This document shows, piece after piece, positions 2,858 to 30,372 of a stretch of DNA of 64,000 bases; position 1 is the first letter of the stretch, and every line of letters begins with the position of its first letter. Source of the stretch: Candidatus Multivoradales bacterium (GTDB lineage: Bacteria; Acidobacteriota; Thermoanaerobaculia; Multivoradales; J023). Location: assembly GCA_965250305.1 (NCBI GenBank), contig CBDFNS010000023.1, positions 182,623 through 246,622 of the forward strand, in the 5' to 3' direction. A model generated the notes under the pieces. It made no database searches. It had not been told where the DNA came from and was given only the letters and a program-made list of their open reading frames with translations. The position numbers and the translations under genes are program-made.

Positions 2858-2962
2858 ACTGGCTGCATCCACCCCGATTTCGGACGCCCAGCGGGCTTCC
2901 TTCCGCATTGCGGGTCTGGTTGGCTGACGCTTCCAAAACGACTCTGTGGAGAACGCACCCTC

Positions 2963-3520: not shown

Positions 3521-3551
3521 CGCTAGCCCAACTAGCCCGGCTAGCAGGGCG

Positions 3552-5107: not shown

Positions 5108-5313
5108 GATGTCCTCGCAGCGATCGCGCGCGATCTGCTTGGTTCTTGTTCGAGTTGTAGCTGCCGAGCACGGCAACGGGGCGCTGATTCTAGCGCGAAG
5201 CGAGGTTGCGGGCCACCACCCTATCTCGATGTCTAGGACGAGGCGAACTTGCCGGGGCTTCTGTTGCCAAGGGCCCAGCGACCTCCGAATCAGAGTTCAG
5301 CGACCGCACCCAC

Positions 5314-5392
5314 GTTAGACGTGGATGGGCGTAACGCGGCCATTGATCGTGCGGAAGACGATCGGCCGGCCGCATTTGTTGCAGGTATACAT
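5314..5392 (-). CDS. Candidate 25-codon small ORF (MYTCNKCGRPIVFRTINGRVTPIHV) with a single CxxC
   Basis: GGAG is 5 nt upstream of an ATG in the efp upstream intergenic region. It lies out of frame inside ORF-track entry 5190..5498. Coordinates are approximate. Confidence 0.15.
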
Positions 5393-5527
5393 GGCGGCTC
5401 CATGAGCGGTCCTTTGACAGGCCACCGGAATGCAAATACACTGTCAGGGTAAGGCTCTGGCGGTGTTTTGCACTTCCAGCCCCCGTTAGCTCACCCAATG
5501 TGGGTAGCCCGTCTCAAGGCGTGAGGG

Positions 5528-5560
5528 GAAGTAGGCCGTGGGGTTGCAGCCCTACGGCCT
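5528..5560. terminator. 11-bp-stem GC-rich hairpin (aggccgtgggg-ttgcag-ccctacggcct) just 3' of the XRE-ImmA gene
   Basis: Seen directly in the sequence. It sits a few nt beyond the 5566 stop at the low-GC island boundary. Confidence 0.35.
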
Positions 5561-5565
5561 CTTGC

Positions 5566-9376: not shown

Positions 9377-9424
9377 GAAGGCCCTTTCAGGGCTGAATGT
9401 TGGCGCGCTCGGGTACGCTACACC

Positions 9425-10552: not shown

Positions 10553-11045
10553 GAGCTGGACCAAAGAAGAATCGCATGTGGAAGTCAGACCAAGGAGAAC
10601 GAGCAGTGACCTCCGCCCGTCGGCACGGGCCGGGAGCTACGCGAGGCCCGGATGGTCCTGCTTGGGGAACGTCTGAATTCTGACACACGCTTGGACTCGA
10701 TCACACGAACCTCAATCTTGGCGGCACCCGTTCGAGCGCAACAAATGCGGTGCGGACCACCGTCGTCGGTTTCGGCTCCGATGGGCCTACGCCAACATGC
10801 ATAGGATCCCGACTCCGTCTGCGACGGCAAGGTCAATGAGGCCCGATCACGATTCTTCCACTAAGCGCGAGGCTCGCACCAGCAGATGTATTCCGCCAAG
10901 CTATTCACCGATATGATCCGATCGGCGGTTTTAGCCGTGTGACGCTGCCCTACGCACATATACGAAATCAGCAGAGAGTTCCCGCCGAGTGGCCATGGCA
11001 GGATCTCTCTCCGAGTCACATCTTTCGATTGGCTTCACGTTTCTC

Positions 11046-12422: not shown

Positions 12423-12685
12423 GTCGCTTAAGCCGCTCGGCCTCCGGGGCCTTGACTCGTCATTGGCATGGCGGTATGTTCCCCGGAGTACACTCTTGCC
12501 TGGCAGCGCAGCTCAATGACCACGGTGGCGTAAGACCGTTAAGGGTGCCTATCGGGCTTCGTAGAAGTTTGTAGAATAGAACGTAAAGTTCACCAAGCCC
12601 AACGTTCGCATTCACCTGTATGGCCGAGTAGAAGTACCTCGAAGTATGCAGAACTCAGACAACGATCAGTCGGGGGTCATTCTCG

Positions 12686-14353: not shown

Positions 14354-14369
14354 GGTGCTCCGAGGCCGA

Positions 14370-15941: not shown

Positions 15942-16287
15942 TGGTTGGTGTTGGAGGGCGCCGAACACGCCAACGCGTATTGTAGTCGCCCGCGTCGAAC
16001 ATCGAACGGTGTTTTCGGTTACTGCTTCATGCTGGGAACCAGGCCAGCGTCGACCAGGCCTGCTCCAGCCACTGTGCAGCGAGCCGATGCCCGCTCGCGG
16101 TGCCCAATCGCGGCCATTTTGTCAGATTGTTGGCGCGGTGCCCGTCGTGTACGACAGACATGCGTACGAAAAAGTAGACGCTTGTCCGGGGGGTACTGCG
16201 ACCGCGGTCAGCGACGTGGCCCGGCCTGATCGCACCGTGGGCGGGATTTGCTGCAACTGGCCCCACAGCCAGGAGGTGTGCAGGTTA

Positions 16288-16302
16288 TGGCACCGGCTTT
16301 GC
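16288..16302 (+). promoter_or_regulatory. Sigma-54 (-24/-12) promoter TGGCAC-N5-TTGC
   Basis: tggcaccggctttgc has GG and GC spaced exactly as in the RpoN consensus, about 50 nt upstream of the 16354 start. The operon it precedes ends with a sigma-54-dependent activator. Confidence 0.55.
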
Positions 16303-16353
16303 TGTTTATCGACGCGAGTCGTGAGATTGCATTTTGATCGAGGAGTCCGCTGA

Positions 16354-17766
16354 ATGGCGCGCGTACATCGTCAAACCGTGAACGTTTTCTGGTTACTTGT
16401 CTTCGTGTTGACGGCCGACGTGGCGCAGTGCGCTGCCCCGCCCGCGCAACCGTCTACGAAGCTGTGGATCGAGACGATCGTCGTGGACGGGTTGACCTAC
16501 GCATCTTCGGCGTTGATCGTGGCGGAGGCGCGCTTGGTCGGTGAACAGTCGTACTCGGAATCGGCCCTGCGGGATGCGGTTCACCGGGTGCGGCGGTTGC
16601 CGTTTGTGCGCGACGCTGAGTTCGAGCTTCGTCGAGGAAGCGCGCGTGGGCGCTACGAACTGGTGATCGCCGTGGACGAGACCAATCGGGTGTTCTTGGG
16701 TGAAGACGCTGTCGTTACCCGCGCCAACCCCGATCTTGCCCTTGGCGGAGGGCGCCCCAAAGCCCAATCGGTATCGAGCGCTCCGCAGGTCGGTGGGCGG
16801 CTCTTCCTCGGTCCTTACGACGTTGTGTTCGGTGCGATCGGCGGCGGAACCGGCGTGCGGGTTGGCTACCAACGCTACAATTTTCTGGGCCGCGGGGGTG
16901 TCTTCGGGGTCGCGGTACAACGGGCCGAGTGCTGCTCGAACCAGATCCATGACCTAGGACTCGACCCGACGTTCAGTGTCTGGCGGGACGAGGGGGAGAC
17001 CCATCAACTGGATCTCAATGTCGGCGTACCGTTGCGCGGGAGCCAAAGTCTCGAGCTACGCTACTCTCATCGCCGAAGCGACAAGGGGACGCGCCGCGCT
17101 GGCTTGCTTGATGCTGAGGCACTGGAGCTGGGTCAGTACGCGCAATTCGCCTACAAGGACCTCCGGCGGCACCGGCTCGAGATCGCCTGGCGTCGCGATA
17201 CCACCGATGACCCGATGTTCCCGCGGCAAGGCGCGGTCGTGCGGGCCGGTTTCGATGCATCGTTTTTCGCAGCGGACCAAAGGGCTGGGCTTGCGACGTT
17301 GGATGGTGTCGCCTTGATGACCGACGGCGTCCTGCCGACGACGCACACACGGCAAATTCGTTTGCTGCTTGCCGCCGAGAAAACGTGGAGCGCTGGCCGG
17401 CGCCATGCCGTGTCGTTCGGCGTGCACGGTGCCGCTGGACGCGCACAGCTGGAGAATCTACCCGTCGATGTCCAGCGAATCGACGGCGTGCCGATGCCGA
17501 TCGTGGCGAGCGAGAATCCCGATGTCTGGGCAGCCGGTCTCAGTGCGCGCTACACCGTCAGTGTGTTTTCGGCGTCGCAGGCGCGTCGGTTTGGCGAGCT
17601 GTATTGGCAGAACCGTTTGAGTGTCGATTTCGAGGAAGCCGATGTCGCTTTTCCTTCAGCCCACGGTAGTCGGCTGGAAGTCATCAAGCTGGAAACATCG
17701 ATCGCGTTGCGCAGCACGTGGGGGCTGTTTCGCCTGACTTTTCAACTGCTCGAACTCTCGTCGTAG
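16354..17766 (+). CDS. POTRA-domain outer-membrane protein (ShlB/FhaC/BamA-like)
   Basis: Signal peptide, a POTRA-like N-terminal region (LWIETIVVDGLTYASSALIVAEARLVG...YELVIAVDE) and a Gly/aromatic-rich, beta-barrel-like remainder. Confidence 0.5.
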   Translation: MARVHRQTVNVFWLLVFVLTADVAQCAAPPAQPSTKLWIETIVVDGLTYASSALIVAEARLVGEQSYSESALRDAVHRVRRLPFVRDAEFELRRGSARGRYELVIAVDETNRVFLGEDAVVTRANPDLALGGGRPKAQSVSSAPQVGGRLFLGPYDVVFGAIGGGTGVRVGYQRYNFLGRGGVFGVAVQRAECCSNQIHDLGLDPTFSVWRDEGETHQLDLNVGVPLRGSQSLELRYSHRRSDKGTRRAGLLDAEALELGQYAQFAYKDLRRHRLEIAWRRDTTDDPMFPRQGAVVRAGFDASFFAADQRAGLATLDGVALMTDGVLPTTHTRQIRLLLAAEKTWSAGRRHAVSFGVHGAAGRAQLENLPVDVQRIDGVPMPIVASENPDVWAAGLSARYTVSVFSASQARRFGELYWQNRLSVDFEEADVAFPSAHGSRLEVIKLETSIALRSTWGLFRLTFQLLELSS

Positions 17767-17769
17767 ATT

Positions 17770-18438
17770 ATGACCGGAGGTTTGGTCATCGCGTGTGTCC
17801 TGGTGTCGGCGCTTGCCGCGGAAGCACCGCGTGGTGAGCCGGTTGTCGAGCAAGCCGAGGGCGCCACAACGGTGCAAATCTCGGCGTTGCCGCAGTCGGT
17901 TCTTGCTGACGAGGCGATCCGCAAGCAGTTGACCAGTGGCTTGACGACGAGCCTGGTGCTACGGGCACGCGCCGTGGGCGGAGGCACCGGCAGGATTGAA
18001 GGTGGTGCGCAAGTGACGATTCGGTTCGAGCCATGGGACGAGGTGTTTTTGGTGCGCGCAGTGGGAATCGATGGTCGAGGTGGTCGCGCGACATTCGAGT
18101 CATTCAGTGACCTCGAGGCCTGGTGGCGCGATCTCCATTTGACCGTGGTGGACGATCCTCGTTTACTACGATCCAGCGCGCGTCGCGTGCGGGTCGAGCT
18201 TGATGTCGTGCCGTTTTCTGAGCAAGAACAGCGGGACACTCAGCGTTGGTTCGCCGATGTCCTCGACGAAGCAGGCGCAGCCAGTGAGGTGGGCGAGTCC
18301 ACCCGCCAAGGAAATGATGCGCTGCGCCAGGTGTTCCATCTTCTGATGGCCACCTCCATTCGGCGCCACCCGCTGGCGAGCTTCGAGTGGACTGTTCCAC
18401 TTGTTCGACCACCATCGACACCGGAGATGCGGCCTTGA
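17770..18438 (+). CDS. DUF4390-like periplasmic protein, an NtrY/NtrX-type operon companion
   Basis: Signal peptide, and its position immediately upstream of a histidine kinase + sigma54 regulator pair as in DUF4390-ntrYX-type operons. The family call is from gene order and length, not verified by profile. Confidence 0.5.
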   Translation: MTGGLVIACVLVSALAAEAPRGEPVVEQAEGATTVQISALPQSVLADEAIRKQLTSGLTTSLVLRARAVGGGTGRIEGGAQVTIRFEPWDEVFLVRAVGIDGRGGRATFESFSDLEAWWRDLHLTVVDDPRLLRSSARRVRVELDVVPFSEQEQRDTQRWFADVLDEAGAASEVGESTRQGNDALRQVFHLLMATSIRRHPLASFEWTVPLVRPPSTPEMRP

Positions 18439-19745
18439 ATCGCGGCGAACCGTGGCGGGTTTCGGTGTTGTTGGCCGTGATCGCCCTGGTTGCGGCCGGC
18501 GTCATGTTGGCGATTCTTCAGCAACGAGTCGCTGGCTCGCTGTTGGCGGTGGATGGGAGCCCACAGGTGATCGCGTTGCTCGAAGCCTCTCGCGACGATC
18601 AGCGAACGCTTGCAACCGGTGATCCGGTGGCCGCACTCCATCATCGCGAACGGTTTGGGGAGCTCGACACCTTGCTGCGACGGTTGCGCATCCTCGACCA
18701 CAGTCGCAACGACATCATCAGGTGCTACCGGGTCATTCTGCTGGCCGTGTCCATGCTCGTGGTCGGGTTGGTAGTGGGCGCGACCGCGGTGCGGCAAAGC
18801 CGGCGAGGGCAACGACTCTCTCGCTTGCAGGCGGCTCTTGGTGACTTGGCGGCGGGACGCTCGGATCTCGACCTCGGTCCCAGCAAGCGCGACCTGATCG
18901 GTCGCATCGAAATGATGGTCGTACTGGCATCTCGGGTCATGGCGCGAGATCGTCGCCGACTCGAGGGGCTGCGCAATCTCTCGACCTGGCAAGAGGCCGC
19001 GCGTCGTCACGCCCACGAAATGCGGACGCCCCTAACCGGAGCACGCCTGGAGCTCGCTCGGCTGGAGGATCTGGCGGTCGTCCTCGAGCGGACTGCCCCC
19101 GAAGATCAGGCCGCGGCGCTGCGCCAAGCGGCCAAAAGCGCCCTGCAAGAGCTGGAACGGCTACGACGATTCACCCAAGCGTTTACCTCGTTTGCGCGGC
19201 TGCCCAAGGCCCAGCTCGTACCGCTGGATCTTCATGCGTTGTCCAACGAATTTGTCGCGATGTTTGCGGACGCGTGGCCCGGTGTGCGCCTGGTTCCGGC
19301 GGCCGCCATACCTCCGGTGCGGGTGCGCGCCGACCGCGATCTGATCCGCCAAGTCCTGGTCAATCTATGCGACAACGCGGCCCAAGCGATGGGCGAATCA
19401 GGCGGTGTGATTCGGCTTCTTTTTGTCGACCAAGAATCAACGAATCGAGTCGTAGGGGCGAGCGAACGCATGGTGGCAGGCCGCAATCTGCCGGCCAATA
19501 CGGTTGCGCTCGACGTCGTCGACGATGGGCCCGGGATTGACCCGGCGCTTGCTGACCGGCTGTTCGAGCCCTACACCACCACCCGAAGTATTGGTGAAGG
19601 AATGGGGCTTGGCTTGGCGATCTCACGCAAGCTGATGCTCGATCAAGACGGAGATCTCGAAGTGCTCCCGGCCAACACGGTGGGTGCCACCTTTCGCCTT
19701 ACCCTGCCCGACGACGACTCGTGCGGGACCGGAGACCCATCATGA
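18434..19745 (+). CDS. Sensor histidine kinase (HisKA + HATPase_c)
   Basis: H-box HEMRTPLTGA, N-box LVNLCDNAAQA, G-boxes DDGPGIDP and GMGLGLAIS, and N-terminal TM segments. A TTG start overlapping the upstream stop is likely (cTTGA); the ORF-track start at 18387 is the alternative. Confidence 0.85.
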
Positions 19746-21154
19746 GCAGCATCCTTATCGTCGAGGACGATCCCAAGATTCGCGCCAACTTGCAGTTTCA
19801 ACTGCGTCAACAAGGTCTCGTGCCCAGTGTCATGGAGAATGCGGAGGCCGCGCTCGCCGCGCTGACCGACCGCGAGGTCGGTGGTCCCGACCTCCTGCTG
19901 CTCGATGTTCGCCTTCCCGGCATGAGCGGGGTCGATCTGGTCCGCGCGCTGGCCAAGGCCGAGCGTTTACCACCTACGATCATTGTCTCCGGCGAAGCCT
20001 CGATCACCGAGACGGTCGAAGCGGTCCAGCTCGGTGTTCACGACTTCATCGAGAAGCCGTTTACCCGTGAGCGGCTGATGCAATCGATCAAGAATGCCCT
20101 CGAACACACCGCGTTGCGTCGCGAGGTCGCGGAGCTGCGCGCCGAAGTCGCGGCCAGCAACGCCATCTTGGGGAATGCGCCTTCGGTCGAAGCACTTCGA
20201 GAGCAAATCGCGCGCGCTGCGCCGACCGACGGTCGGGTGTTGATTCGGGGTGAAAGTGGCACCGGCAAGGAGCTGGTCGCCAACGCCCTCCACGAGCAGA
20301 GCCCACGGCACAACAATCCGTTCATCAAGATCAACTGCGCCGCGATCCCCACACAACTGATCGAGAGCGAGCTTTTTGGTCACGCCAAGGGTGCCTTTAC
20401 GGATGCCCGCGCGGCCAAGGCGGGGCTGTTCGAGGAGGCTGACGGCGGCACACTCTTTCTCGATGAAATCGGCGACATGGACATGCTCCTGCAAGCGCGT
20501 TTGCTGCGTGTGCTCGAAGACGGCTTGGTTCGGCGGGTGGGCGAGAGTCGTGACCGATCGGTCGATGTACGGGTGATCGCGGCCACCCATTGCGACCTCG
20601 AGGGCTCCGTGCGCTCGGGTGCCTTTCGCGAGGATCTCTATTTTCGTCTGGCCCATTTGCCGATATCCGTACCTGCGCTGCGCGATCGGGGCCGTGACAT
20701 TCGGCGGCTGTTCGACCACTTCCTCGCGCGCTTCACCCAACGCCATCGTGCACGGGTGCGGCGGGTCGACGAAGACGTGTACACCTACTTGACGCGGTAC
20801 CCCTGGCCCGGAAACGTGCGCGAGTTGCGGGCGTTGTGTGAGCGCTTGGTGGTGTTCGGCACCGATCCGCTGACCGTGGAGCAGCTCCCCTCGAGCTTCT
20901 TCGCCAACGGTGACGGCACGGAAGGGAGGAATGGCGAGACCGGGCTCGTGCACCTTAGTGATGCCATGCCCAATTTGACCCTTCGAGCGTTCAAAGCGCA
21001 ATGCGAGAAAGAGTTCATCGAGCGGATGCTGCACCGAACCGACTGGAACGTCACCGCCGCCGCCCGTCTACTCGACATCCGCCGGACGTACCTGCATCAG
21101 AAGATGGCCAACCTCGGGATCAGGCGACCGTCGCCTTCAGCGCTTACAGCCTGA
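19742..21154 (+). CDS. Sigma-54-dependent response regulator (NtrC/NtrX family): REC + AAA+ + Fis-type HTH
   Basis: ILIVEDD...[13 protein letters not shown] receiver, GESGTGKE Walker [12 protein letters not shown], and a C-terminal HTH. ATG at 19742 overlaps the kinase stop (ATGA). Confidence 0.9.
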
Positions 21155-21867: not shown

Positions 21868-22788
21868 TCAGAGCGTTCCCTTCTCACTCAACTCGCGGGC
21901 TTCCGCCTCGGTGTCGACATCGCGCGCCAGCGACCGGCATGAAAGCAGGGCCACTCGGCCACGTCGGTCGGGCAAGCGGCGTCGATGGGCGCGCCGCACC
22001 GCGAACCGGCGCAGCAGGTCCTCCAGTTGTGCCGCCGTGGCGTCATGGCGCGTCAGGTGGCCACCAGTGGTGACCCCATTGGTCACGATGTCCCAGGTCA
22101 AGAGTGGTGCCCGCCCGCGCAGGAATCGTCGCAGGTCGCCGCCGAGAAGCAGGCCCAGGATCTTGCGCAGCATGAGCGCCCGCCGGTAGCGCACCCCGCG
22201 CTCCCGTGTGGCGTAGGCGATGTCGAAGAGGAAGAGCAGCTCACGCAGCCGCAGCACGCACGGGTTGCCGATCACCAAGTGACTCGGCAGCGTCGCTACG
22301 GGCTCCGTGTCGGCGGTGGGCTTGAAGTAGTAGCGTGGCTTGTAGCCCGACGAGCCGAGCTCCGACGGACGTTGAACGCGGTGCTGGGGCATCCAGAAAT
22401 CGAGTGGCCGGTGCGCGCGGTAGTCGTCCAGCGCCGTCGCCAGATCTTCGGCACTTGGCAATACGTCGCTGGTCGCCACCGCCATCTCGTCGATCGGCCC
22501 GCTGGCCATCAGAGCCTCGAGACCAGCTTTCAGGTTGCCCGAGAACGTCGAATCGGTGTCCACGAGCAGAACATCCAAACCCAACGGTTCGTACACTGCC
22601 GCTGGTCCGGCAACCGCGATCGGATCAAACGCCCCGGTCGTCCGCAGGCGCGTCACCAACGCTTCGAGCATCGTCACCCCGCCCACACGGGTGTTGACTG
22701 CTTTGAAGCCATGAAGGCTCTTCCCGTCGCCATGCGGCGACGCGCTCTTGGTGTCGCGGCCAGCGAGGATGATCAACGGGAGCTTCAT
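21868..22788 (-). CDS. Nucleotidyltransferase (MobA-like NTP_transferase fold) protein
   Basis: MKLPLIILAGRDTKS matches the N-terminal G-rich NTP-binding loop of MobA/CofC/GlmU-type transferases. ATG at 22788. Confidence 0.45.
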   Translation of the reverse strand: MKLPLIILAGRDTKSASPHGDGKSLHGFKAVNTRVGGVTMLEALVTRLRTTGAFDPIAVAGPAAVYEPLGLDVLLVDTDSTFSGNLKAGLEALMASGPIDEMAVATSDVLPSAEDLATALDDYRAHRPLDFWMPQHRVQRPSELGSSGYKPRYYFKPTADTEPVATLPSHLVIGNPCVLRLRELLFLFDIAYATRERGVRYRRALMLRKILGLLLGGDLRRFLRGRAPLLTWDIVTNGVTTGGHLTRHDATAAQLEDLLRRFAVRRAHRRRLPDRRGRVALLSCRSLARDVDTEAEARELSEKGTL

Positions 22789-22935
22789 TGTGGGGAAGCT
22801 TACCCTTGATCGGTATCTTGCGGGGGAATCCTCCAGACGAGAGAGTCCACTGGGATGCATCGCCGCCGCAGGCGAGAGGCTGACGTGCTAAATTTGAGGC
22901 CAGAAGATTAATCTCTATGCAGAAATCCACAAACG

Positions 22936-25881
22936 GTGGCGGATGTCCCTCAAGAAGGGGAAGCTGAGTTGGTTCTAGTTCCGTTCAGAGCCCGTGCGAG
23001 AACCGTAGACCATCTCGGCCGGGAGCAGATTGCTGATTGCCCGACTGCAATCAGCGAGCTTTGGAAGAATGCCTACGATGCATATGCCAAGTCGGTAGGG
23101 CTACACATCTTCGATGGCGAACTACCCGTTGCTGCCGTCGTTGACGACGGGCACGGCATGTCTGCCGAGGAATTCGTTGATCGGTGGCTCATGCTCGGGA
23201 CCGAGGCCAAAGCCGGTAAGAATGACGTACCCGTCGAGGATAGGAACGGGCTTCCTCAGCGCCCACGCCAGGGCCAGAAGGGTATCGGCCGTCTATCCGT
23301 CGCTTACCTGGGTCCTACTGTGCTGGTTCTTACCAAGCGGAGAGAGCTGCCTTTCGTTGCAGCGCTTATTGACTGGAGGCTGTTTCAGAATCCGTATCTC
23401 GCGCTCGATGATGTACAGGTGCCGCTTGAGGAGTTTTCAGACACTGTTGACTTCCCCGGAATCCTCAGTAAGCTCTTCGATGGGCTGGTCGACAATGTGT
23501 GGGGCGGTGCGGGAGACCCGGAGCGACAGGCCCGGCTCGAATCAGCCTGGCAGCGATTCTCTAACGATGAGATAGGCAGCGGAGAGTGCTCAGCGGACTG
23601 CATCGCCGGACTCGCGCTAGCAGGAGTCCTCGACGACAGGCACCTTTCCGCCTGGCCGGCCTGGAGCGGAGAGAAAGAAATGGGTACGGCGCTTTTTGTG
23701 TTCGACGTCGGACACGAGCTTCGTGTTTGGATCGACCCGAGTTTTGCGGATGAAGATCCGGAGATCAAGGAAACTCGCGACAACCTTCGCCTTACGTTGA
23801 CCGGATTCATCGATCCATATTCCGATCAAAATCAGGAATTTAGGTATGAGGCCATCGCCCATCGTGGCGCTTGCCGGCATGAGGTCGTGTCCTCCGCGGA
23901 GATGTTCGACATTCACGACCTACGAGATCTTGAACACGTTGTCGAGGGGCGGTTCGATCAAGCAGGACTGTTCAAGGGGCGTGTCCGTGCTTGGGGTCAG
24001 GACCTCGGTGAGGTGACGGTTGCGCCTTCGCGGCCGCCACCCGCTCAGGGTAGTGCTTTTGTCGGTGAATTCGACATCTGTTTCGGCACTTTCGAGCAAG
24101 AGGTTCAGAGAAGCACGCACACCGCCGACGTGATCGCACGTCTTAAGGAACGAGCCCTGCGATTCAGTGGCCTCGCTGTCTATCGCAATGGGATTCGTGT
24201 GCAACCCTACGGCCGCCCACAGGCGGATTTTTTCAGAATGGACTTGCGAAGGCAGATGCACGCAGGACGTGAATTCTGGGCCCATCGCCGCACTTTCGGC
24301 CGGGTCGCGATCACGCAGGAGGAGAACTCACGCCTGCGGGATAAAGCCGGCCGAGAAGGCATCATTGACAATCGCGCCGCACGTGAGTTCCGACTTCTCG
24401 TCGTCGACCTGCTGAAGACCTTGGCTCGTCGGTATTACGGCTCCGACTCCGATGTCAGAGAGGCGAACATCGAAGAAGCCAAGAGGCGGTACGAGCAAGC
24501 GAAAGCAGCCGAGAAGCAAGCCGGAGAACGTCGATTGAAAGCCTTGCGCAAAGCACTGACGACACAAGGTGAGGATCTGGAGGCTTGCCTTGCGGACGTC
24601 AGAGCTGTTCTCAGTGATTTGAAGAGGTCGCTGGATCCGCAAGCCTTCGTGGACCTGAACGATCGGCTGGAGGAACTCCGCAGGACACGCACGAAACTGG
24701 CATTGCCGCCACGCCCGCGAAAGCTGTCAAACTCGCTTGAGGATCGGTACAGGACGTATCGCGATTCCTTTGCGGAGTTGACGGCAACCCTGGAGCGGGC
24801 GAGCACCCGGTGGTCGACAAATGTTGAGGCCGATCCGCGGATGTCGCACGCCGAGGTCGCCAACAGCGCACTCGCCCGGCACCAGAAGTTCATCACGGAT
24901 GCTACCTCTCGCTGGAAGCGATCCATCCGCGCTCTGCTCAAGGTAGAGCAGACTCGTTGGTCAGATCGAGTCGACAAGGACAACACGCGCTACTACGCGC
25001 TCGCTTCTCCCTTGGTCAAGGACGTTGCCGAAGATCGACTGATTCTTGGGCATGTCCTTTCCGAAATGGAGGGGCTGCGGGAGCGCATCTACGCTGAGCT
25101 GGCACGAGAGTACGAAGCGTATCTCCGGGCGCTTGGTGCCCTAGGAGAGGGTATCGATATCGACGAGGCCCTTGCCTGGGCCATCGATGAACGGATGGAT
25201 CTTCAGAACAAGGCCCAACAGTGGCAAGACCTCGCACAACTCGGAATCACCGTCGAGATCATCGGCCACGAGCTCAACGACTCGGCGGCACAGGTTTCCA
25301 GGAATTTGCTTCGGTTGCCGAGTTCTACTAAGAAAACGGAAGCCTACAAACTCGCGAAGGACGGCTTTCAGGCTCTCGTTCATCGCCTAAAGTTCTTAGC
25401 TCCGCTTAGGCTTTCCGGCTCCCACATGCGGGAGACGATCTCCGGAAAGGACATCGAGGAATACCTGCGGAGTTTCTTCAAGGGGCAGATCGCCCACCGC
25501 CGCGTTGATTTTTCTGCCACTCCGGAGTTTAAGGCCGTCACCGTGGTCGACTACCCGCACCGCTTGTACCCCGTCTTCGTGAACCTGGTGAACAACGCAT
25601 TGTATTGGGTGACCTTCGATACCCAGCGCAAGATCTTGCTTGATCGAATCGGAAACCGCGTGTTTGTTGCTGATTCGGGGCCAGGGGTGGATCCCGACGA
25701 CATCCCGCAACTGTTTCAGATGTTCTTTACCCGTAAGGTTGGCGGCCACGGCGTAGGCCTATTCCTGTCACGGGTCAGCCTTGAACAGGGTCGCCATCGT
25801 ATTCGCTACGCTGATCCCGACGAGGGTATCTTGCCGGGCGCAAACTTCATAATTGAGTTTCAGGATCTTCAGAATGAGTGA
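22936..25881 (+). CDS. 981-aa dual-GHKL protein: N-terminal Bergerat-fold ATPase (MORC/MutL-like) + coiled-coil + C-terminal histidine-kinase catalytic core
   Basis: N-terminus has ISELWKNAYDAYA (N-box ExxxNxxDA), VDDGHGMS (G1) and QKGIGRLS (G2). C-terminus has the H-box ITVEIIGHELNDSAAQ, N-box VFVNLVNNALYW, VADSGPGVDPDD, the F-box QLFQMFFT and GGHGVGLFLS. GTG start. GC is about 56% in an island flanked by 67% GC DNA. Confidence 0.75.
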   Translation: MADVPQEGEAELVLVPFRARARTVDHLGREQIADCPTAISELWKNAYDAYAKSVGLHIFDGELPVAAVVDDGHGMSAEEFVDRWLMLGTEAKAGKNDVPVEDRNGLPQRPRQGQKGIGRLSVAYLGPTVLVLTKRRELPFVAALIDWRLFQNPYLALDDVQVPLEEFSDTVDFPGILSKLFDGLVDNVWGGAGDPERQARLESAWQRFSNDEIGSGECSADCIAGLALAGVLDDRHLSAWPAWSGEKEMGTALFVFDVGHELRVWIDPSFADEDPEIKETRDNLRLTLTGFIDPYSDQNQEFRYEAIAHRGACRHEVVSSAEMFDIHDLRDLEHVVEGRFDQAGLFKGRVRAWGQDLGEVTVAPSRPPPAQGSAFVGEFDICFGTFEQEVQRSTHTADVIARLKERALRFSGLAVYRNGIRVQPYGRPQADFFRMDLRRQMHAGREFWAHRRTFGRVAITQEENSRLRDKAGREGIIDNRAAREFRLLVVDLLKTLARRYYGSDSDVREANIEEAKRRYEQAKAAEKQAGERRLKALRKALTTQGEDLEACLADVRAVLSDLKRSLDPQAFVDLNDRLEELRRTRTKLALPPRPRKLSNSLEDRYRTYRDSFAELTATLERASTRWSTNVEADPRMSHAEVANSALARHQKFITDATSRWKRSIRALLKVEQTRWSDRVDKDNTRYYALASPLVKDVAEDRLILGHVLSEMEGLRERIYAELAREYEAYLRALGALGEGIDIDEALAWAIDERMDLQNKAQQWQDLAQLGITVEIIGHELNDSAAQVSRNLLRLPSSTKKTEAYKLAKDGFQALVHRLKFLAPLRLSGSHMRETISGKDIEEYLRSFFKGQIAHRRVDFSATPEFKAVTVVDYPHRLYPVFVNLVNNALYWVTFDTQRKILLDRIGNRVFVADSGPGVDPDDIPQLFQMFFTRKVGGHGVGLFLSRVSLEQGRHRIRYADPDEGILPGANFIIEFQDLQNE

Positions 25882-27544
25882 CGCCGGGGGGCACGTTGGT
25901 CCATGTGGCCCGGTAGAGGCCTACGTCCTGCCGATTCGGTCCGTGCTATTCATTGACGACCAGTTTCCAACGTTCGGACGATCCCCCCCACATGAGGTAA
26001 AAGAGACCGTAAGAGCACGTGCCCTCTGGCAAGTGTGCACGGAACGCGGCTGGCTTTGCGATGTAGACAACTCGCCGGATTGGAATACTGCGGAAAAACA
26101 ACGCCGCCTTGCGGCGTGCGATCTTCTCGTCCTTGACTTTCACTTGGACGGCGACAATAGCGCACCGGCTCTGATCATCATCCAACAGCTCGCTTTGAGT
26201 ACCACGCCAAATATGGTCGTGGTTTACACCCGCGACGAGGACCTGGACGATGTCCTTTTCAAGGCAGCGAGTTGGGCAAGGGGTGTGCGAGACGACGCTT
26301 TGGCGATCGAGATGACCGAAGATCTCGAGGAGCTCGAAGAACTCGTGGAGTGGTCAACCCTGGATCTTGCCGAGTACCTTTCGAACGGTACCGTTGGGGC
26401 GTCGTCTTTAAATATCGCGTGCGAAAACGCAAGGCTTCAACGCCCGGCAGAATCGAGTTGCGCTGCTCTGGTTGAGCGCCTGCTTCGGCGCGCATACAAA
26501 GCCGAGCCGACTGACGAGATCAGAAGGATCGAGAGGCTTGGGCACGCGGAGCACAAATGGTTTCAGTGTGGCAACTTGTTTCTGGCAGTAATCGGAAAGC
26601 CTGCGGAACAGGAAGCTGCTTCGGAGGCGGAGTCGCTCCTTGGCGGTCTTGAGGGCGCGGTTCGAGATTGGAAGCCTTCGTGGCTCGCGTGTGACATAGC
26701 AAGCTCGAGGCGGCAGGTGGAGATTGGTGCCTTCCGTGACGATTCTCGCCTGCTGGAGGAGCCGCTGAAGCGAGGTCTATTAGGCTATATCTCGGGTTCA
26801 GAGAGCGAATCTGAGCGTTTGCGCCGGTCAAAGGAAGTCGCTAATAGCCTTCTGTCAAAGAGGTTCGATCGCGCGGCGGCGGAACTCGGCCAGCGCCTTC
26901 TCACCAGATCGACATCTGGCACGAACGAATATCTCGATGAGACTGCAACACTCCATTTGAACACCTATCTGTGCTCGGAGAGCTTTAGTCACCATCATAT
27001 CCATGTGGGAACGATCTTCGCCGAAGTTGGGACAGAGACCAAGTACTGGCTCTGCGTGACACCCGCATGCGACATGGTGCCCAGAAAGCCCGATAAAGTG
27101 TTGAATCCTTGGGCAGCGCGTCTCTATCCTTTCCGGCCGATGCTGGCGCTCCGGCTTACTCGGATCTCCGACGAGTCGAAGATCCGAAGGGCCCTCAAAG
27201 AAGCGCACCTTGGTCGTAACCTGTTCTTCTGGGACCCAGACCGAGAACCTCATGATCCGATCGTAGCCGCCTGCTTTAACCGACGAACTGCTGACCCGAA
27301 TCCGATGCTTGAACAGATGATCGCCGTCGATCAAGCTCGCGTCTCGGAGAGAGGTACGCTTCGGCTGCGCCGTTGCATCAATCGAACGAAGGCGAATGGC
27401 GAGGCCGAGATCGCCCTGCACGAGGTTGAGTGTTTCCCGGTGGCGCAGCTTCGGCCACCCTATTCAGAACGAGTCGTTCATGTAGTGGGAGGACATGTCT
27501 CTCGCATTGGCGTGGACTTCGTCCGGTTCAGGCCCTCAAGCTGA
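25874..27544 (+). CDS. Receiver (REC)-domain protein with an unknown approximately 430-aa output domain
   Basis: ATG at 25874 overlaps the upstream stop (ATGAGTGA). VLFIDDQF ... DLLVLDFHLDGDN ... MVVVYTRDE ... FKAASW reproduce the REC acid pocket, phospho-Asp, Thr and Lys positions. The remainder has no recognisable domain. Confidence 0.7.
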   Translation: MSDAGGHVGPCGPVEAYVLPIRSVLFIDDQFPTFGRSPPHEVKETVRARALWQVCTERGWLCDVDNSPDWNTAEKQRRLAACDLLVLDFHLDGDNSAPALIIIQQLALSTTPNMVVVYTRDEDLDDVLFKAASWARGVRDDALAIEMTEDLEELEELVEWSTLDLAEYLSNGTVGASSLNIACENARLQRPAESSCAALVERLLRRAYKAEPTDEIRRIERLGHAEHKWFQCGNLFLAVIGKPAEQEAASEAESLLGGLEGAVRDWKPSWLACDIASSRRQVEIGAFRDDSRLLEEPLKRGLLGYISGSESESERLRRSKEVANSLLSKRFDRAAAELGQRLLTRSTSGTNEYLDETATLHLNTYLCSESFSHHHIHVGTIFAEVGTETKYWLCVTPACDMVPRKPDKVLNPWAARLYPFRPMLALRLTRISDESKIRRALKEAHLGRNLFFWDPDREPHDPIVAACFNRRTADPNPMLEQMIAVDQARVSERGTLRLRRCINRTKANGEAEIALHEVECFPVAQLRPPYSERVVHVVGGHVSRIGVDFVRFRPSS

Positions 27545-28605
27545 TGGCGGGAGAGCGAAGTTAGGGCTTTTGCCACGGCCAAGGCGTGACGCCTAGCTAG
27601 CTCGGGGGGGAATGCGTTCCCGATCATTGTAGCCACTGGGTACTTTCCTCGTCTAATTGGAAAGCTGTACTTTAGTGGGAATGTTTGCAGCAGAGCTGCT
27701 TCACGAGGCGTCACACAACGATCCTGCTCTGGATGAAGGAAGCGACCCTTGGACGGGTTAACGAAGCCCCCGGTTATCGTGGGTGACACCTCGTCCCAGC
27801 GCATTCTTCCGTAGACGTCGTAGAATCCATCGAAGTCCTTGTGGCATTCAAGCTCGTGCCGAGGGCCAAGGTCCTTCCGGCTGCCTCCATCATGAGGAAT
27901 TTTTTGGATCATCTCCGCAATCTCGGGGCGTCGAGCCTCGGAAACGTCGTGAACGGCATCCTTGCTCGTACCCGGCCTCGACAGTTTTCCGATAGCCTGC
28001 CGTACCGTCCCGCGTTTCTTTTTGGCGACCGCAATCGGCATCGCAACTTGCGCCCCGCGAACCGCTAGCATGATGAGCCGCCGCCGCCGCTGCGGGACAC
28101 CAAAGTCCGCAGCATTGTGCACCTCATCAGTTGCCGTGTAACCAAGGTTGCGGATCGATCGGAGAAGTTCTAGATAACGGCTGTCACCGGCGAGGCCTGG
28201 AACGTTCTCGAGCATGAGCGCCCGCGGCAACAGCTCGCGGACCAGCCGAGCATACTCTTGAACCAAGTCGTTACGCGGGTCGTCAGCTGCTTCGCCTCTG
28301 TTCAGAGTCCTCATGCGCGAGAATCCCTGACATGGCGGGCACCCTGCTAGAAGATCGAGTTGCCCTCGCTTGATTTCAAGATCGTCGAGAATCGTCCGGC
28401 CCGTGAGTTTACGGATATCCTGTCGATAGATCTGAGCGACATCGGCATGGTTGGCCTCGTAGGCCTCTAGTGCTCCCGGCTCACACTCAACAGCCGCCAT
28501 CACCCGGAAACCTGCGAGTTTCAGACCGGTCGTTAAGCCGCCGCAGCCGGAGAAAAGGTCGACTGCAGTCAGCGTGGCTGGACCTTCTGCTAAAGACGTA
28601 TCCAT
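27478..28605 (-). CDS. dcm: DNA (cytosine-5)-methyltransferase
   Basis: DLFSGCGG (motif I), GCPPCQGFS (the catalytic PC motif) and ENVPGL (motif VI). GGAGAC RBS. Convergent with the REC gene and overlapping it by 67 nt. Confidence 0.92.
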   Translation of the reverse strand: MDTSLAEGPATLTAVDLFSGCGGLTTGLKLAGFRVMAAVECEPGALEAYEANHADVAQIYRQDIRKLTGRTILDDLEIKRGQLDLLAGCPPCQGFSRMRTLNRGEAADDPRNDLVQEYARLVRELLPRALMLENVPGLAGDSRYLELLRSIRNLGYTATDEVHNAADFGVPQRRRRLIMLAVRGAQVAMPIAVAKKKRGTVRQAIGKLSRPGTSKDAVHDVSEARRPEIAEMIQKIPHDGGSRKDLGPRHELECHKDFDGFYDVYGRMRWDEVSPTITGGFVNPSKGRFLHPEQDRCVTPREAALLQTFPLKYSFPIRRGKYPVATMIGNAFPPELARRHALAVAKALTSLSRHQLEGLNRTKSTPMRETCPPTT

Positions 28606-29034
28606 GAGGTCTCCGAGGGGGTCGTCGTACTTCTAAGCATAGCCGACTTGCGTTGATTCGGGAATGTGGCGGGGCGATCGGGACACAATGCCAACGTCCG
28701 GCGATCCAAGGTCAACGTTTGGCGGTGAAGCTGGGAAAGCACGGTTCAGACTACCGCTGCCTGGGGCTACTGACCAAAGGGGTTGGTCAAGCCGAGATTT
28801 TCCCTTGGGATCGTCCCGCAGCGAGAGGCACAAACCAGCAGACGGTGGCGATGGGGCGGATCATTATTGGGCCTTCGGCACGACGACCGCTGTCGCTCGT
28901 CGCTTGATAGCTATCCTGACCCGATTCGCCGTCATCGACACCGTCTGCATCAATGCCAGAGATATCTTGTGTGTCTGGCTGCCGGTAGGGGCATGGCAGG
29001 GACAAGTTTCTTCGGTTTGCTTCAATGGCTACGA

Positions 29035-30372
29035 TCAACTCGCCGATGCAACGCCCAGAACATCGCTCAGAAGCCACCAGATGCCCACGGTGAGGATGGC
29101 CGCGGGTACCACGTAGCGGAGCCACCAATACAAGAACCGAACGTGCGGGACGCCTTCGAGTTGGCGTAGGGCAGCGGCGCGGTTGAGGCACCAGGCGACG
29201 GTGATGACCGTGACCAATGCGCCGAAGGTCTGCATGCCGGAGCCGAAGGTGAGGTCCCACACGGAGAAGATCCGCATGTTGATCATGGGGGCGATGGCGG
29301 TTAGGTAGACCACGGCACCGAGGGTCCAAGTGGCTTGGCGACGGTTGAGGCGGGTGTTGTCGACCAGGCCGGCGATCAATACCTCGAAGGCGCCGAGGAT
29401 CGAGAGAAACGCCGCGCCCAGCAAGCCGGTGTAGAACACGACGCCAAACAGCCCCCCGAGAGGCAGGGCGGCGAACACTTTCGGTAGAGTGAAGAAGATC
29501 AGACCCGGGCCGCTGTCGGGCTCGAGCCCGAAGGCGAAGACCGCGGGAAAGATCGCCAGACCGGCAAGCAGGCCGGCCACCAGGTCGGCGCCCGCGGTGA
29601 TCACCGCATTGCCGGCGAGGGGGGTGTCCTTGGGTAGGTAGGAACCGTAGACGACCATGAAGGTTCCGCCCAGCGATAGGGTGAAACAGGCTTGGCCGAG
29701 GGCGGCAAGCACCACGGCCGGCGAGATCGACGCCCAGTCGAGCTTACCGATGTACCAACGCAGGCCTTCTTCGGCGCCGTCCAAGGTCACCGCGCGGATA
29801 ATCAGAATGAGCAGGCAAACGAAGAGCGTGGGAATGATGACGGTGCTCGCCCTTTCGATTCCACGTCGAAGGCCGCGCAGCAAGATGGCCATGCTGGCGA
29901 GCACCAAGACGCCGCTCGCGACCAGTTGAATCGCGAGCGAGCGGCCATCGAATCCTGCATCGGGCGGCAGCGCGGAGGAGGCATCAAAGCCGCTGCCCAC
30001 CAGGCGCATCGCTTCGGCCAGTCCGTACGTCAACACCCAGCCGACGGCGTTGGTGTAGTAACCAACGGCGAACATCACGACACCGAAGAAGAGCCAACCA
30101 ATGACCTGACCACCGGGCAAGCCTGCCAAGCGAAAGGCGCCCACGGGCCCTCGACGGGTCTCGCGCCCCAAGGTCCATTCGGCGAGCAATGCTGGTACTC
30201 CCAGGAACGCGACCAGCAGCACATAGACCAGCACAAACGACGCGCCACCGAACCGCCCCACCATGTAGGGGAAACGCCAAACGTTGCCCAGGCCCACGGC
30301 GACACCGATCATGGTCGCCAAGAGGCCGAGGCGGGAGCTGAAGGTCTCGCGGCGTACCGTTGGAGCAGGCAT
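29035..30372 (-). CDS. Sodium-dependent transporter, NSS (SNF) family
   Basis: GLGNVWRFPYMVGRFGGASF is the NSS signature, with about 11-12 TM segments. Confidence 0.88.
   Translation of the reverse strand: MPAPTVRRETFSSRLGLLATMIGVAVGLGNVWRFPYMVGRFGGASFVLVYVLLVAFLGVPALLAEWTLGRETRRGPVGAFRLAGLPGGQVIGWLFFGVVMFAVGYYTNAVGWVLTYGLAEAMRLVGSGFDASSALPPDAGFDGRSLAIQLVASGVLVLASMAILLRGLRRGIERASTVIIPTLFVCLLILIIRAVTLDGAEEGLRWYIGKLDWASISPAVVLAALGQACFTLSLGGTFMVVYGSYLPKDTPLAGNAVITAGADLVAGLLAGLAIFPAVFAFGLEPDSGPGLIFFTLPKVFAALPLGGLFGVVFYTGLLGAAFLSILGAFEVLIAGLVDNTRLNRRQATWTLGAVVYLTAIAPMINMRIFSVWDLTFGSGMQTFGALVTVITVAWCLNRAAALRQLEGVPHVRFLYWWLRYVVPAAILTVGIWWLLSDVLGVASAS

What the first reader, a model, noticed from the sequence alone, without database searches (positions are those of the whole stretch)
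22861..28650. Low-GC 5.8-kb island: dual-GHKL histidine-kinase giant + coupled receiver protein with novel output + convergent Dcm methylase
GC here is about 56% against about 67% in the flanks. Three genes sit between an AT-rich promoter patch at 22861-22935 and the high-GC NSS transporter. Gene A (22936..25881) combines a MORC/MutL-type Bergerat ATPase at its N-terminus (ExxxNxxDA, DDGHGM, GxGxGRLS) with a complete histidine-kinase core at its C-terminus (H, N, G1, F and G2 boxes), separated by a charged coiled-coil. I do not recognise this architecture. Gene B starts inside gene A's stop (ATGAGTGA) and carries a bona fide receiver domain followed by about 430 aa with no recognisable fold; this is the presumed effector. 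Two-component logic applied to a non-regulatory, horizontally acquired cassette beside a DNA methylase resembles defensive two-component systems such as Detocs. It also recalls the MORC-like GHKL ATPases that Iyer and Aravind linked to restriction-modification loci. This exact combination is not one I know as described.
Basis: partly seen in the sequence, partly recalled or inferred. Interest (0 to 1): 0.8.

Follow-up and report, generated by a model that had tools for sequence, protein, structure and literature searches.

The report
Kinase–receiver pair tied to DNA methylase
A small, horizontally acquired three-gene cassette (DNA cytosine methylase, a soluble MutL/MORC-like ATPase fused to a histidine kinase, and a receiver protein with an unknown output domain) is real, but it belongs to a family described computationally in 2021; nobody has tested its function, and it most likely works as a restriction-modification-like defence switched by phosphotransfer.

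Summary
The architecture is not new. Pfam matches gene A as HATPase_c_3 + HEF_HK (PF19191) + HATPase_c and gene B as Response_reg_2 (PF19192). Both families were defined by Bellieny-Rabelo et al. 2021 (Genome Biol Evol, PMC8011034) for this gene pair and its link to C5 DNA methylases.

The GC dip is real but smaller than stated: 57.7% against about 62-64%, not 56% against 67%.

- In 27 of 27 loci with enough flank, from at least 7 phyla, A and B are adjacent and a C5 methylase is the immediate neighbour, in three gene orders. Vsr is the only other recurrent gene, and no separate nuclease is present.
- All catalytic residues of both ATPase sites, the phospho-His, and the receiver Asp/Thr/Lys are (near-)invariant.
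- E. coli carries intact triads in mobile islands, and decayed remnants that lack both the methylase and A's sensor ATPase.

I found no experimental study. Best reading: a methylation-coupled, phosphorelay-gated toxic or restriction effector. Verdict: new member of a known, uncharacterised kind; moderate interest.

The parts
22861..22935 (.). Intergenic region between the divergent upstream gene (21868-22860, - strand) and gene A. It is the presumed promoter region of A-B.
   Evidence: GC is 52%. The sigma-70 scan found no consensus match, so promoter function is inferred from position only.
22936..25881 (+). Gene A: a soluble 981-aa protein of the 'group 1' HEF_HK family, with a sensor ATPase fused to a histidine kinase.
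   Evidence: Pfam finds HATPase_c_3 + HEF_HK + HATPase_c, all above cut-off. All 41 aligned homologs have the same three domains. There is no TM segment. The word-indexed search returned 3572 homologs.
23002..23352 (+). Gene A residues 23-139: MutL/MORC-type (paraMORC-like) GHKL ATPase domain. It is the presumed sensor or DNA-clamp module.
   Evidence: - Pfam PF13589, E 1.1e-13.
- NCBIfam BbrUII/HgiDII restriction-enzyme N-terminus, E 1.2e-16.
- The nearest solved structures are PMS2 and MutL.
- E41, N45, D48, D70, G72, G74, G113, K115, G116 and G118 are invariant in 41 homologs.
- It is the most conserved segment of the system, with median 60% identity.
23353..25236 (+). Gene A residues 140-767: a conserved middle region (140-500, unassigned, possibly an S5-like transducer) followed by a long charged helical or coiled-coil linker (about 500-760).
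   Evidence: No Pfam family matches in any of 41 homologs. Residues 518-757 match only coiled-coil proteins in the PDB. Invariant motifs include Y416-R417, P424-Y-G426 and D469-K-A-G-R-E-G475. The fold was not modelled.
25237..25410 (+). Gene A residues 768-825: DHp/H-box domain (HEF_HK). The phospho-acceptor His778 is encoded by codon 25267-25269.
   Evidence: Pfam PF19191 scores 34.7 bits against a cut-off of 24.1. H778 is invariant and E779 nearly so. The codon was verified.
25555..25857 (+). Gene A residues 874-974: catalytic ATP-binding (CA) domain of the histidine kinase.
   Evidence: Pfam PF02518, E 4.5e-14. PDB histidine kinases match with E down to 2.4e-13 using the profile. The N box (N883, N887), G1 (D913, G915, G917), F box (F927, F930) and G2 (G937, G939, G941) are invariant.
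25874..27544 (+). Gene B: a 556-aa response-regulator-like protein. It is translationally coupled to A through an 8-nt overlap.
   Evidence: An identical 556-aa protein is in the public collection (P0001). There are 49 full-length homologs and 705 representative clusters.
25934..26671 (+). Gene B residues 21-266: receiver (REC) domain of the Response_reg_2 type, with a helical insert at about 140-215. The phospho-acceptor Asp88 is encoded by codon 26135-26137.
   Evidence: - Pfam PF19192 scores 63.3 bits against a cut-off of 27.
- Conservation in 158 diverse members: D28 96%, D29 93%, D88 100%, T119 96%, K242 100%.
26672..26974 (+). Gene B residues 267-367: helical bundle of the output region. 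It is poorly conserved (median 18% identity) and is a possible linker or dimerisation element.
   Evidence: AF2 models have pLDDT 85-87. No family match was found.
26975..27541 (+). Gene B residues 368-556: basic beta-rich terminal domain, the presumed effector. Its invariant motifs are CxTPxCD (C394, P397, C399, D400), E480, QLR527xxY530 and SR544IG546.
   Evidence: - No Pfam match, no PDB sequence match and no Foldseek match.
- hhalign against a MazF alignment gave probability below 1%.
- pI is 9.3.
27478..28605 (-). C5 DNA cytosine methyltransferase (Dcm-type), convergent with B. It has intact motifs I (FSGCGG), IV (PCQ), VI (ENV), VIII (QRR) and X (GN).
   Evidence: Pfam PF00145, E 4.4e-55. 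TIGR00675 dcm. PADLOC MTase_II and DruM-like models match. The motifs were located.
28606..29034 (.). Non-coding gap of 429 bp (58% GC) between the methylase start and the 3' end of the NSS transporter gene. It is the presumed methylase promoter and the right edge of the island.
   Evidence: Only short, overlapping ORFs with no conserved content are present, and there is no Vsr-like ORF. An inverted repeat lies at 28838-28853 / 28933-28948.

Best explanation
This locus is an intact member of the HEF_HK / Response_reg_2 'two-component-like' module, which always travels with a C5 DNA cytosine methylase. It is best read as a mobile, restriction-modification-like conflict system.

Proposed mechanism, with the status of each step:
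1. The methylase marks host DNA. Its motifs are intact (shown); its activity is inferred.
2. Gene A is a soluble protein. Its highly conserved MutL/MORC-type GHKL ATPase and conserved middle region act as the sensor. The signal is most likely DNA lacking the mark, or interference with methylation (inferred).
3. The signal passes through a long coiled-coil to a canonical DHp-CA kinase core, which autophosphorylates His778. All catalytic residues are invariant (shown); the chemistry is inferred.
4. The phosphoryl group moves to Asp88 of gene B, the translationally coupled and tightly co-evolving partner. The coupling, co-evolution and an intact receiver active site are shown; the transfer is inferred.
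5. Receiver phosphorylation, probably through dimerisation, switches on B's basic C-terminal beta-domain. This domain is the only candidate effector in the system. It weakly resembles MazF/Kid/CcdB toxins, so it probably attacks nucleic acid (RNA, or DNA/gyrase). The outcome would be restriction of the invader or abortive infection (inferred).
For: - Family membership: all four Pfam domains score above their curated cut-offs, and the system was published.
- Strict triad: 27 of 27 loci with sufficient flank have A followed by B, adjacent or overlapping, with a C5 methylase as immediate neighbour. This holds in three gene orders and in Acidobacteriota, Myxococcota, Planctomycetota, Verrucomicrobiota, Alpha- and Gammaproteobacteria and Desulfovibrionia.
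- Other genes: the only other recurrent neighbour is Vsr, and no separate nuclease is present. Any effector must therefore lie in A or B.
- Catalytic competence: the GHKL motifs, H778, the N/G1/F/G2 boxes and the receiver residues D28, D29, D88, T119 and K242 are invariant or nearly so.
- Co-evolution: pairwise identities of A and B correlate with Spearman 0.79, and 0.76 after controlling for the methylase.
- Mobility and defence context: the GC and GC3 dip. E. coli triads lie in islands with IS elements, integrase, MobH, ArdC and tRNA-Leu, next to a phosphorothioate-dependent restriction endonuclease.
- Decayed copies: 573 E. coli genomes keep B but have lost both the methylase and A's N-terminal ATPase. 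This is what one would expect if intact A-B is harmful without the methylase.
- Precedents: paraMORC ATPases occur in R-M operons (PMC2292703). paraMORC-HEPN RNase fusions occur in R-M loci (PMC3710099). A GHKL-nuclease Shedu defence has been validated (PMC12137116).
Against: - I found no experimental evidence of defence, phosphotransfer or toxicity.
- PADLOC has no model for B, and only a generic REase_II N-terminal match for A.
- The effector assignment is weak. Foldseek found nothing (best E 0.066). hhalign against MazF gave probability below 1%. No PemK or CcdB Pfam hit appeared in any of 23 members, even at E up to 10. No canonical nuclease motif was recognised.
- No region of A or B tracks the methylase target-recognition domain once overall divergence is controlled for. 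Which protein reads methylation is therefore unknown.
- The window locus sits among housekeeping genes, with no other defence gene beside it.
- The family is rare on viral contigs, with only 3 loci found.
Confidence: 0.55

Rival explanations
1. Classical ATP-dependent restriction enzyme. A and B form a stable complex in which B's output domain is a DNA endonuclease of a new fold. It cuts unmethylated target sites. The His-Asp phosphotransfer serves only as a local licensing step, not as a diffusible alarm, so the outcome is direct restriction rather than abortive infection.
For: - The methylase linkage is strict and no other nuclease is present.
- A's N-terminus is most similar to the N-terminus of BbrUII/HgiDII-type restriction enzymes, which pair with C5 methylases.
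- The A and B genes overlap and the proteins co-evolve tightly.
- B is the fastest-evolving component, as restriction endonucleases usually are (median 23% identity).
- Iyer et al. 2008 proposed that paraMORCs loop DNA between recognition and cleavage sites.
Against: - The only fold signal points to MazF/CcdB toxins, which are not DNases.
- No part of B co-varies with the methylase target-recognition domain.
- A phosphorelay is an unusual design for a stoichiometric complex.
Confidence: 0.25
2. Regulatory two-component system. A senses an intracellular cue, for example nucleotide levels. B~P then regulates expression or activity of the neighbouring methylase or of other R-M genes. This is the speculation offered in the 2021 paper.
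For: The proteins have bona fide kinase and receiver chemistry. [quoted passage not shown] The Pectobacterium genes were found because they were induced in planta.
Against: - B has no HTH, winged-helix, GGDEF or other known regulatory output.
- In most loci the only gene available to regulate is a lone methylase, with no restriction endonuclease partner.
- The methylase lies in three different positions and orientations relative to A-B, which argues against one conserved cis-regulatory arrangement.
- The patchy, mobile distribution is not typical of a regulator.
Confidence: 0.12
3. Methylation-linked DNA repair accessory. The MutL-like ATPase and its partner would assist Vsr-type very-short-patch repair of T:G mismatches created by 5-methylcytosine deamination. 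On this reading it is a maintenance module for the methylase, not a defence system.
For: Vsr is the only other recurrent neighbour, found in about 10 distinct loci. The GHKL domain is nearest to MutL and PMS2 among solved structures. E. coli MutL is known to stimulate Vsr (established knowledge; the analogy is discussed in PMC2292703).
Against: - Vsr is absent from most loci, including this window.
- Vsr accompanies C5 methylases in general.
- A histidine kinase and receiver relay has no precedent in mismatch repair.
- The E. coli remnants keep B but lose the methylase.
- Relatives lie in mobile-island contexts.
Confidence: 0.06

Closest known systems
HEF_HK / Response_reg_2 two-component-like system associated with C5 methylases (Bellieny-Rabelo, Pretorius & Moleleki 2021, Genome Biol Evol 13:evab024; Pfam PF19191 and PF19192)
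   Same: Every published feature is present. Gene A has the 'group 1' architecture HATPase_c_3 + HEF_HK + HATPase_c and is soluble. The adjacent Response_reg_2 gene has no other known domain. A C5 DNA methylase lies next to the pair. The N-terminus is paraMORC-like.
   Different: Nothing in the architecture differs. This copy comes from an uncultured, high-GC organism. Its methylase is convergent and downstream, whereas the paper emphasises upstream methylases, and it has no Vsr. The paper left the output domain and the function unassigned.
Prokaryotic MORC/paraMORC GHKL ATPases of restriction-modification operons (Iyer, Abhiman & Aravind 2008)
   Same: It has an N-terminal MutL/MORC-type GHKL ATPase with intact motifs. 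It shares their genomic association with cytosine methylases and Vsr, and their sporadic, laterally mobile distribution.
   Different: The described paraMORC1-5 families combine GHKL+S5 with nuclease, TIR or other C-terminal domains, or with helicase partners. Here the C-terminus is a complete histidine-kinase core, and the effector sits on a separate receiver protein. An S5 domain could not be tested.
BbrUII/HgiDII-family type II restriction enzymes (NCBIfam NF050001)
   Same: The N-terminal GHKL domain is similar (E 1.2e-16 over about 115 residues), and both have a C5 methylase partner.
   Different: Only the first 120 or so of 659 profile positions match, at 60 bits against a cut-off of 550. 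The rest of the restriction enzyme is replaced by the middle region, coiled-coil and kinase. This locus is not a member.
Detocs (defensive two-component system; Rousset et al. 2023, recalled from my own knowledge)
   Same: The logic is similar: a histidine-kinase-like sensor passes a phosphate to a receiver fused to a toxic effector, outside any transcriptional role.
   Different: There is no DtcB buffer receiver, no PNP or ATP-degrading effector, a different sensor, and an obligatory methylase partner. No PADLOC model matched B.
MazF/Kid(PemK)/CcdB toxin superfamily
   Different: There is no support from sequence or profile searches (Pfam, hhalign) or from Foldseek. The domain is about 190 aa against about 105-115 aa. 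It is fused behind a receiver and a helical bundle, and there is no antitoxin gene. Its invariant residues (C394, C399, D400, R527, Y530, R544) do not match the MazF catalytic pattern.
GHKL-Shedu VcSduA / paraMORC3 (Nat Microbiol 2025, PMC12137116)
   Same: It is a validated anti-phage system in which an N-terminal GHKL ATPase is thought to control a C-terminal effector.
   Different: VcSduA is a single polypeptide with a DUF4263 PD-(D/E)xK nuclease. It has no kinase, no receiver and no methylase.

Membership tests
HEF_HK / Response_reg_2 system (PF19191/PF19192; Bellieny-Rabelo et al. 2021) | HEF_HK (DHp-like) domain with a conserved His followed by an acidic residue | tested here: met
   PF19191 scores 34.7 bits against a cut-off of 24.1 at residues 768-825. 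H778 is invariant and E779 is at least 90% conserved in 41 homologs.
HEF_HK / Response_reg_2 system (PF19191/PF19192; Bellieny-Rabelo et al. 2021) | 'Group 1' architecture: N-terminal HATPase_c_3 plus C-terminal HATPase_c, in a soluble protein | tested here: met
   PF13589 at 37-137 and PF02518 at 874-974 both score above their cut-offs. The maximum 19-residue hydropathy is 1.2, so no TM segment is expected.
HEF_HK / Response_reg_2 system (PF19191/PF19192; Bellieny-Rabelo et al. 2021) | An adjacent gene encoding a Response_reg_2 protein with no other known domain | tested here: met
   PF19192 scores 63.3 bits against a cut-off of 27 and is the only Pfam hit in B. The genes overlap by 8 nt.
HEF_HK / Response_reg_2 system (PF19191/PF19192; Bellieny-Rabelo et al. 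2021) | A neighbouring C5 cytosine DNA methylase | tested here: met
   PF00145, E 4.4e-55, immediately downstream and convergent. The same holds in 27 of 27 related loci.
Functional two-component phosphorelay | Intact kinase catalytic boxes (H, N, G1, F, G2) and the receiver acidic pocket, phospho-Asp, and the Thr and Lys switch residues | tested here: met
Functional two-component phosphorelay | Demonstrated autophosphorylation and His-to-Asp transfer | not testable with these tools
   This needs biochemistry. No published assay was found.
Restriction-modification system | A DNA methyltransferase with intact catalytic motifs | tested here: met
   Motifs I, IV (PCQ), VI (ENV), VIII and X are present. 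TIGR00675 matches at E 1.1e-42.
Restriction-modification system | A recognisable cognate DNA endonuclease domain | tested here: not met
MORC/paraMORC ATPases (Iyer et al. 2008) | A GHKL domain with conserved ATP-binding motifs I-IV | tested here: met
   E41, N45, D48, D70, G72, G74, G113, K115, G116 and G118 are invariant. The nearest solved structures are PMS2 and MutL.
MORC/paraMORC ATPases (Iyer et al. 2008) | An S5-fold transducer domain after the GHKL domain | not tested
   Residues 140-500 are conserved but match no Pfam family.
Detocs | Three genes: sensor kinase DtcA, receiver-only buffer DtcB, and receiver-effector DtcC (PNP or TM effector) | tested here: not met
   The island contains no second receiver gene. 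B's output is not a PNP or TM domain. No PADLOC model matched B.
MazF/PemK/CcdB toxins | Sequence-profile membership (Pfam PemK_toxin or CcdB) | tested here: not met
   None of 23 family members gave a hit, even at E up to 10.
MazF/PemK/CcdB toxins | An SH3-like barrel plus C-terminal helix fold | tested here: inconclusive

The most novel reading that the evidence does not exclude
The system would be a new mode of self/non-self discrimination. In it, a MORC/MutL-like DNA-clamping ATPase reads the methylation state of DNA and reports 'non-self' by His-Asp phosphotransfer. The receiver-fused effector would be a previously unrecognised, highly diverged branch of the MazF/CcdB toxin fold, activated by phosphorylation instead of by loss of an antitoxin. 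That would make it the first phosphorelay-gated restriction or abortive-infection system coupled to DNA methylation.
Probability: 0.25. Interest if true: 0.75.

Novelty: new member of a known kind. Interest (0 to 1): 0.4.

Why it matters
The family is widespread. It has 705 clusters at 50% identity and occurs in many phyla. About 4% of complete E. coli genomes carry the methylase-plus-kinase genes (both loci inspected in detail held the full triad), and about 10% carry remnants. It was absent from the defence-system catalogue checked here (PADLOC 2023), and I found no experimental study of it.

If the proposed mechanism holds, it would show that bacteria use classical two-component chemistry inside an R-M-like immune module. 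It would also give prokaryotic MORC-type ATPases a concrete signalling role and add a new effector fold. E. coli copies exist, so the key tests are straightforward: phage challenge, toxicity without the methylase, and H778/D88 point mutants.

Tried and rejected
2. I noticed by eye that B's 'LEQMxxxDxxRV', 'RPxxALRL' and 'IVAACF' resemble MazF signature strands. I tested this with hhalign, using a 23-sequence and then a 158-sequence B alignment.
3. Foldseek against the PDB on the output model returned only noise.
4. The profile of B against PDB sequences gave no hit even at E 10.
5. A Pfam scan of 23 output domains at E up to 10 found nothing recurrent.
6. I looked for covariation between the methylase target-recognition domain and sub-regions of A or B. 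No region tracks it after controlling for overall divergence (partial correlations at most 0.26). The target-recognition domain is as conserved as the methylase core, so I withdrew my interim idea that the methylase is a freely exchangeable partner.
7. I searched for island boundaries (tRNA, att-like direct repeats, integrase) and found none.
8. A sigma-70 promoter scan of the 'AT-rich patch' gave no match.
The host taxon remains unknown.
10. DefensePredictor (Science 2026) lists 'HATPase' and 'REC' among the domain abbreviations in the legend of its figure panel (6F) of predicted, unvalidated systems. The text does not show that this refers to the present system, so I make no claim.
11. Viral contigs yielded only 3 loci, so there is little evidence that the system is phage-borne.

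Full report
OBSERVATION

The three ORFs exist as described.
- Gene A is 22936-25881 on the + strand (981 aa).
- Gene B runs from the ATG at 25874 to 27544 (556 aa). Its start lies in ATGAGTGA and overlaps A's stop by 8 nt.
- A convergent methylase gene occupies 27478-28605 on the - strand (375 aa). Its 3' end overlaps B's by 67 nt.

The GC dip is real but overstated. GC is 57.7% in 22861-28650, against 62.3% and 64.3% in the two 10-kb flanks and 62.2% in the rest of the window. It is nevertheless the lowest 5.8-kb window in the 64 kb. Third-position GC is 60-65%, against 76-80% in neighbouring genes. There is no tRNA, integrase or flanking repeat. The 'promoter patch' gave no sigma-70 match.

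WHAT THE GENES ARE

Pfam assigns gene A three domains: HATPase_c_3 (37-137), HEF_HK (768-825) and HATPase_c (874-974). It assigns gene B Response_reg_2 and nothing else, and the third gene DNA_methylase. All score above their curated cut-offs.

NCBIfam and PADLOC add only one thing. A's first 120 or so residues resemble the N-terminus of BbrUII/HgiDII-type restriction enzymes. No defence model matches B.

HEF_HK (PF19191) and Response_reg_2 (PF19192) were created by Bellieny-Rabelo, Pretorius and Moleleki (Genome Biol Evol 2021, PMC8011034) for exactly this gene pair. They reported:
- 91.6% linkage over 644 regions;
- HATPase_c_3+HEF_HK+HATPase_c as the predominant 'group 1' architecture;
- soluble proteins;
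- enrichment of C5 methylases, Vsr and type II R-M genes;
- descent from paraMORC ATPases.

They did not assign the response regulator's C-terminal part, and proposed only a possible regulatory link to R-M systems. I found no experimental follow-up in the searchable literature.

CATALYTIC COMPETENCE

In 41 homologs of A, about 42-75% identical to the window protein and from several phyla, the following are invariant:
- GHKL motifs: E41, N45, D48; D70, G72, G74; G113, K115, G116, G118.
- The phospho-His H778.
- The N box (N883, N887), G1 (D913, G915, G917), F box (F927, F930) and G2 (G937, G939, G941).

The profile of A matches solved histidine kinases at E down to 2e-13. At the N-terminus it matches PMS2 and MutL, then Hsp90. 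Residues 518-757 match only coiled-coil proteins.

In 158 diverse B proteins the receiver residues are conserved as follows: D28 96%, D29 93%, D88 100%, T119 96%, K242 100%.

GENOMIC CONTEXT

I collected relatives of B from public genomes and metagenomes. The taxa are Holophagales, Myxococcales, Planctomycetota, Opitutaceae, Sphingomonas, Acinetobacter, Nitratidesulfovibrio, Pantoea, Pseudoalteromonas and others.

I scanned the ORFs of these loci with HMMs of A, B and the methylase.
- In all 27 loci with enough flank, A is followed by B, adjacent or overlapping, and a C5 methylase is the immediate neighbour.
- Three gene orders occur: M then A then B; A then B with M convergent (as in the window); and A then B then M.
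- The only other recurrent neighbour is Vsr, in about 10 distinct loci. No separate nuclease recurs. The window has no Vsr.

Evolutionary rates and covariation:
- A and B co-evolve tightly (Spearman 0.79; partial 0.76 controlling for the methylase).
- B is the fastest-evolving component. Median identity is 23% for B, 40% for A and 35.5% for the methylase.
- The GHKL domain is the most conserved segment, at 60%.
- The methylase target-recognition domain is as conserved as its core. No part of A or B specifically tracks it.

E. coli:
- 212 of 5426 complete genomes match a probe spanning the methylase and most of A.
- The two loci I inspected show intact M-A-B triads. They sit in islands with IS elements, an integrase next to tRNA-Leu, a MobH relaxase, ArdC and a phosphorothioate-dependent restriction endonuclease.
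- Another 573 genomes carry a remnant beside an integrase at ssrA. In the remnant, IS3 has removed the methylase and A's N-terminal ATPase, but B is intact.
- The family is rare on viral contigs.

THE OUTPUT DOMAIN

A profile of residues 245-556, searched exhaustively against 1.84 billion representatives, found 705 clusters at E up to 1e-3. In the best 150 the domain always lies behind an N-terminal region of about 250 aa, so it was seen only in this receiver fusion.

Negative results:
- no Pfam match in any of 23 members;
- no PDB sequence match;
- no significant Foldseek match.

I therefore treat 'MazF/CcdB-like barrel' as a moderate-to-weak fold-level lead, not as family membership.

Invariant residues are N363, G379, C394, P397, C399, D400, R527, Y530, R544 and G546, with E480 at 84%. 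They fit no nuclease signature that I recognise.

MECHANISM

Shown:
- The linkage of the three genes is strict.
- The active sites of both ATPases, the His and the receiver are intact.
- A and B are translationally coupled and co-evolve.
- No other effector gene is present.
- Relatives sit in mobile contexts.

Inferred:
- The methylase marks self DNA.
- A's MutL/MORC-type ATPase and middle region sense unmarked DNA or a failure of methylation.
- The coiled-coil relays this to the kinase core.
- Phosphate moves from H778 to D88 of B.
- Receiver phosphorylation, probably through dimerisation, activates the basic terminal domain against nucleic acid, producing restriction or abortive infection.

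Precedents:
- paraMORCs occur in R-M operons.
- paraMORC-HEPN RNase fusions occur in R-M loci and are interpreted as PrrC-like.
- A GHKL-Shedu defence has been validated.

Rivals are a classical DNA endonuclease of new fold, a purely regulatory two-component system, and a Vsr-linked repair accessory. I list the evidence for and against each separately in this report.

VERDICT

The feature is real and intact. The system is a new member of a family that is already published and catalogued in Pfam, and I found no experimental test of its function. What remains open, and would be of real interest, is the sensing mechanism and the nature of the receiver-fused effector.

Noticed in passing
L032 (E. 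coli SCU-152, NZ_CP051698.1) 9122-12590; also L031 (phage CP-1639 record) 2738-6332: 573 of 5426 complete E. coli genomes carry a decayed copy beside an integrase at the ssrA (tmRNA) site. Gene A is truncated by IS3 and lacks its N-terminal GHKL ATPase, gene B is intact, and there is no methylase. Joint loss of the methylase and the sensor ATPase is what one would expect if intact A-B is harmful without methylation.
   Followed up: partly
L034 (E. coli O55:H7 DEC5E) 11779-17854 and flanks; L033 (E. coli CE0026f) 12001-17961: Intact M-A-B triads in E. coli lie in mobile islands. The islands contain IS elements, an integrase next to tRNA-Leu, a MobH relaxase, ArdC and Fic. In DEC5E the triad sits directly beside a phosphorothioated-DNA-binding restriction endonuclease.
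   Followed up: partly
L001 7094-9999 (2.7-Mb metagenomic contig): In this close relative gene A is split into two ORFs, apparently by a frameshift. The locus also carries a second C5 methylase, Vsr and two HNH_2 endonuclease genes upstream. This may be a decaying copy next to a separate R-M system.
   Followed up: no
window 27478-27544: The 3' ends of gene B and the convergent methylase overlap by 67 nt. In close relatives (L002, L003) the two genes abut without overlapping. The window methylase therefore has a short, non-conserved C-terminal extension that reads through B's end.
   Followed up: partly
window 28838-28853 / 28933-28948: A 16-nt inverted repeat (94% complementary, 79 nt between the arms) lies in the 429-bp non-coding gap between the methylase start and the 3' end of the NSS transporter gene. 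It could be a terminator for the transporter gene or an operator for the methylase.
   Followed up: no
methylase genes of 25 loci (alignment made); window 27478-28605: The target-recognition region of the A-B-linked C5 methylases is as conserved as their catalytic core (median 37% against 37% identity) and has a similar length (112-154 aa, most 112-131). This suggests one coherent methylase lineage, possibly with related specificities, rather than methylases recruited at random.
   Followed up: partly
window 19721-21154 (+), 21868-22860 (-), 29035-30372 (-): The island is embedded among ordinary chromosomal genes. These are a sigma-54-dependent response regulator, a weak MobA-like NTP-transferase homolog and an NSS-family transporter. 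No other defence or mobility gene is adjacent, unlike in the E. coli copies.
   Followed up: no
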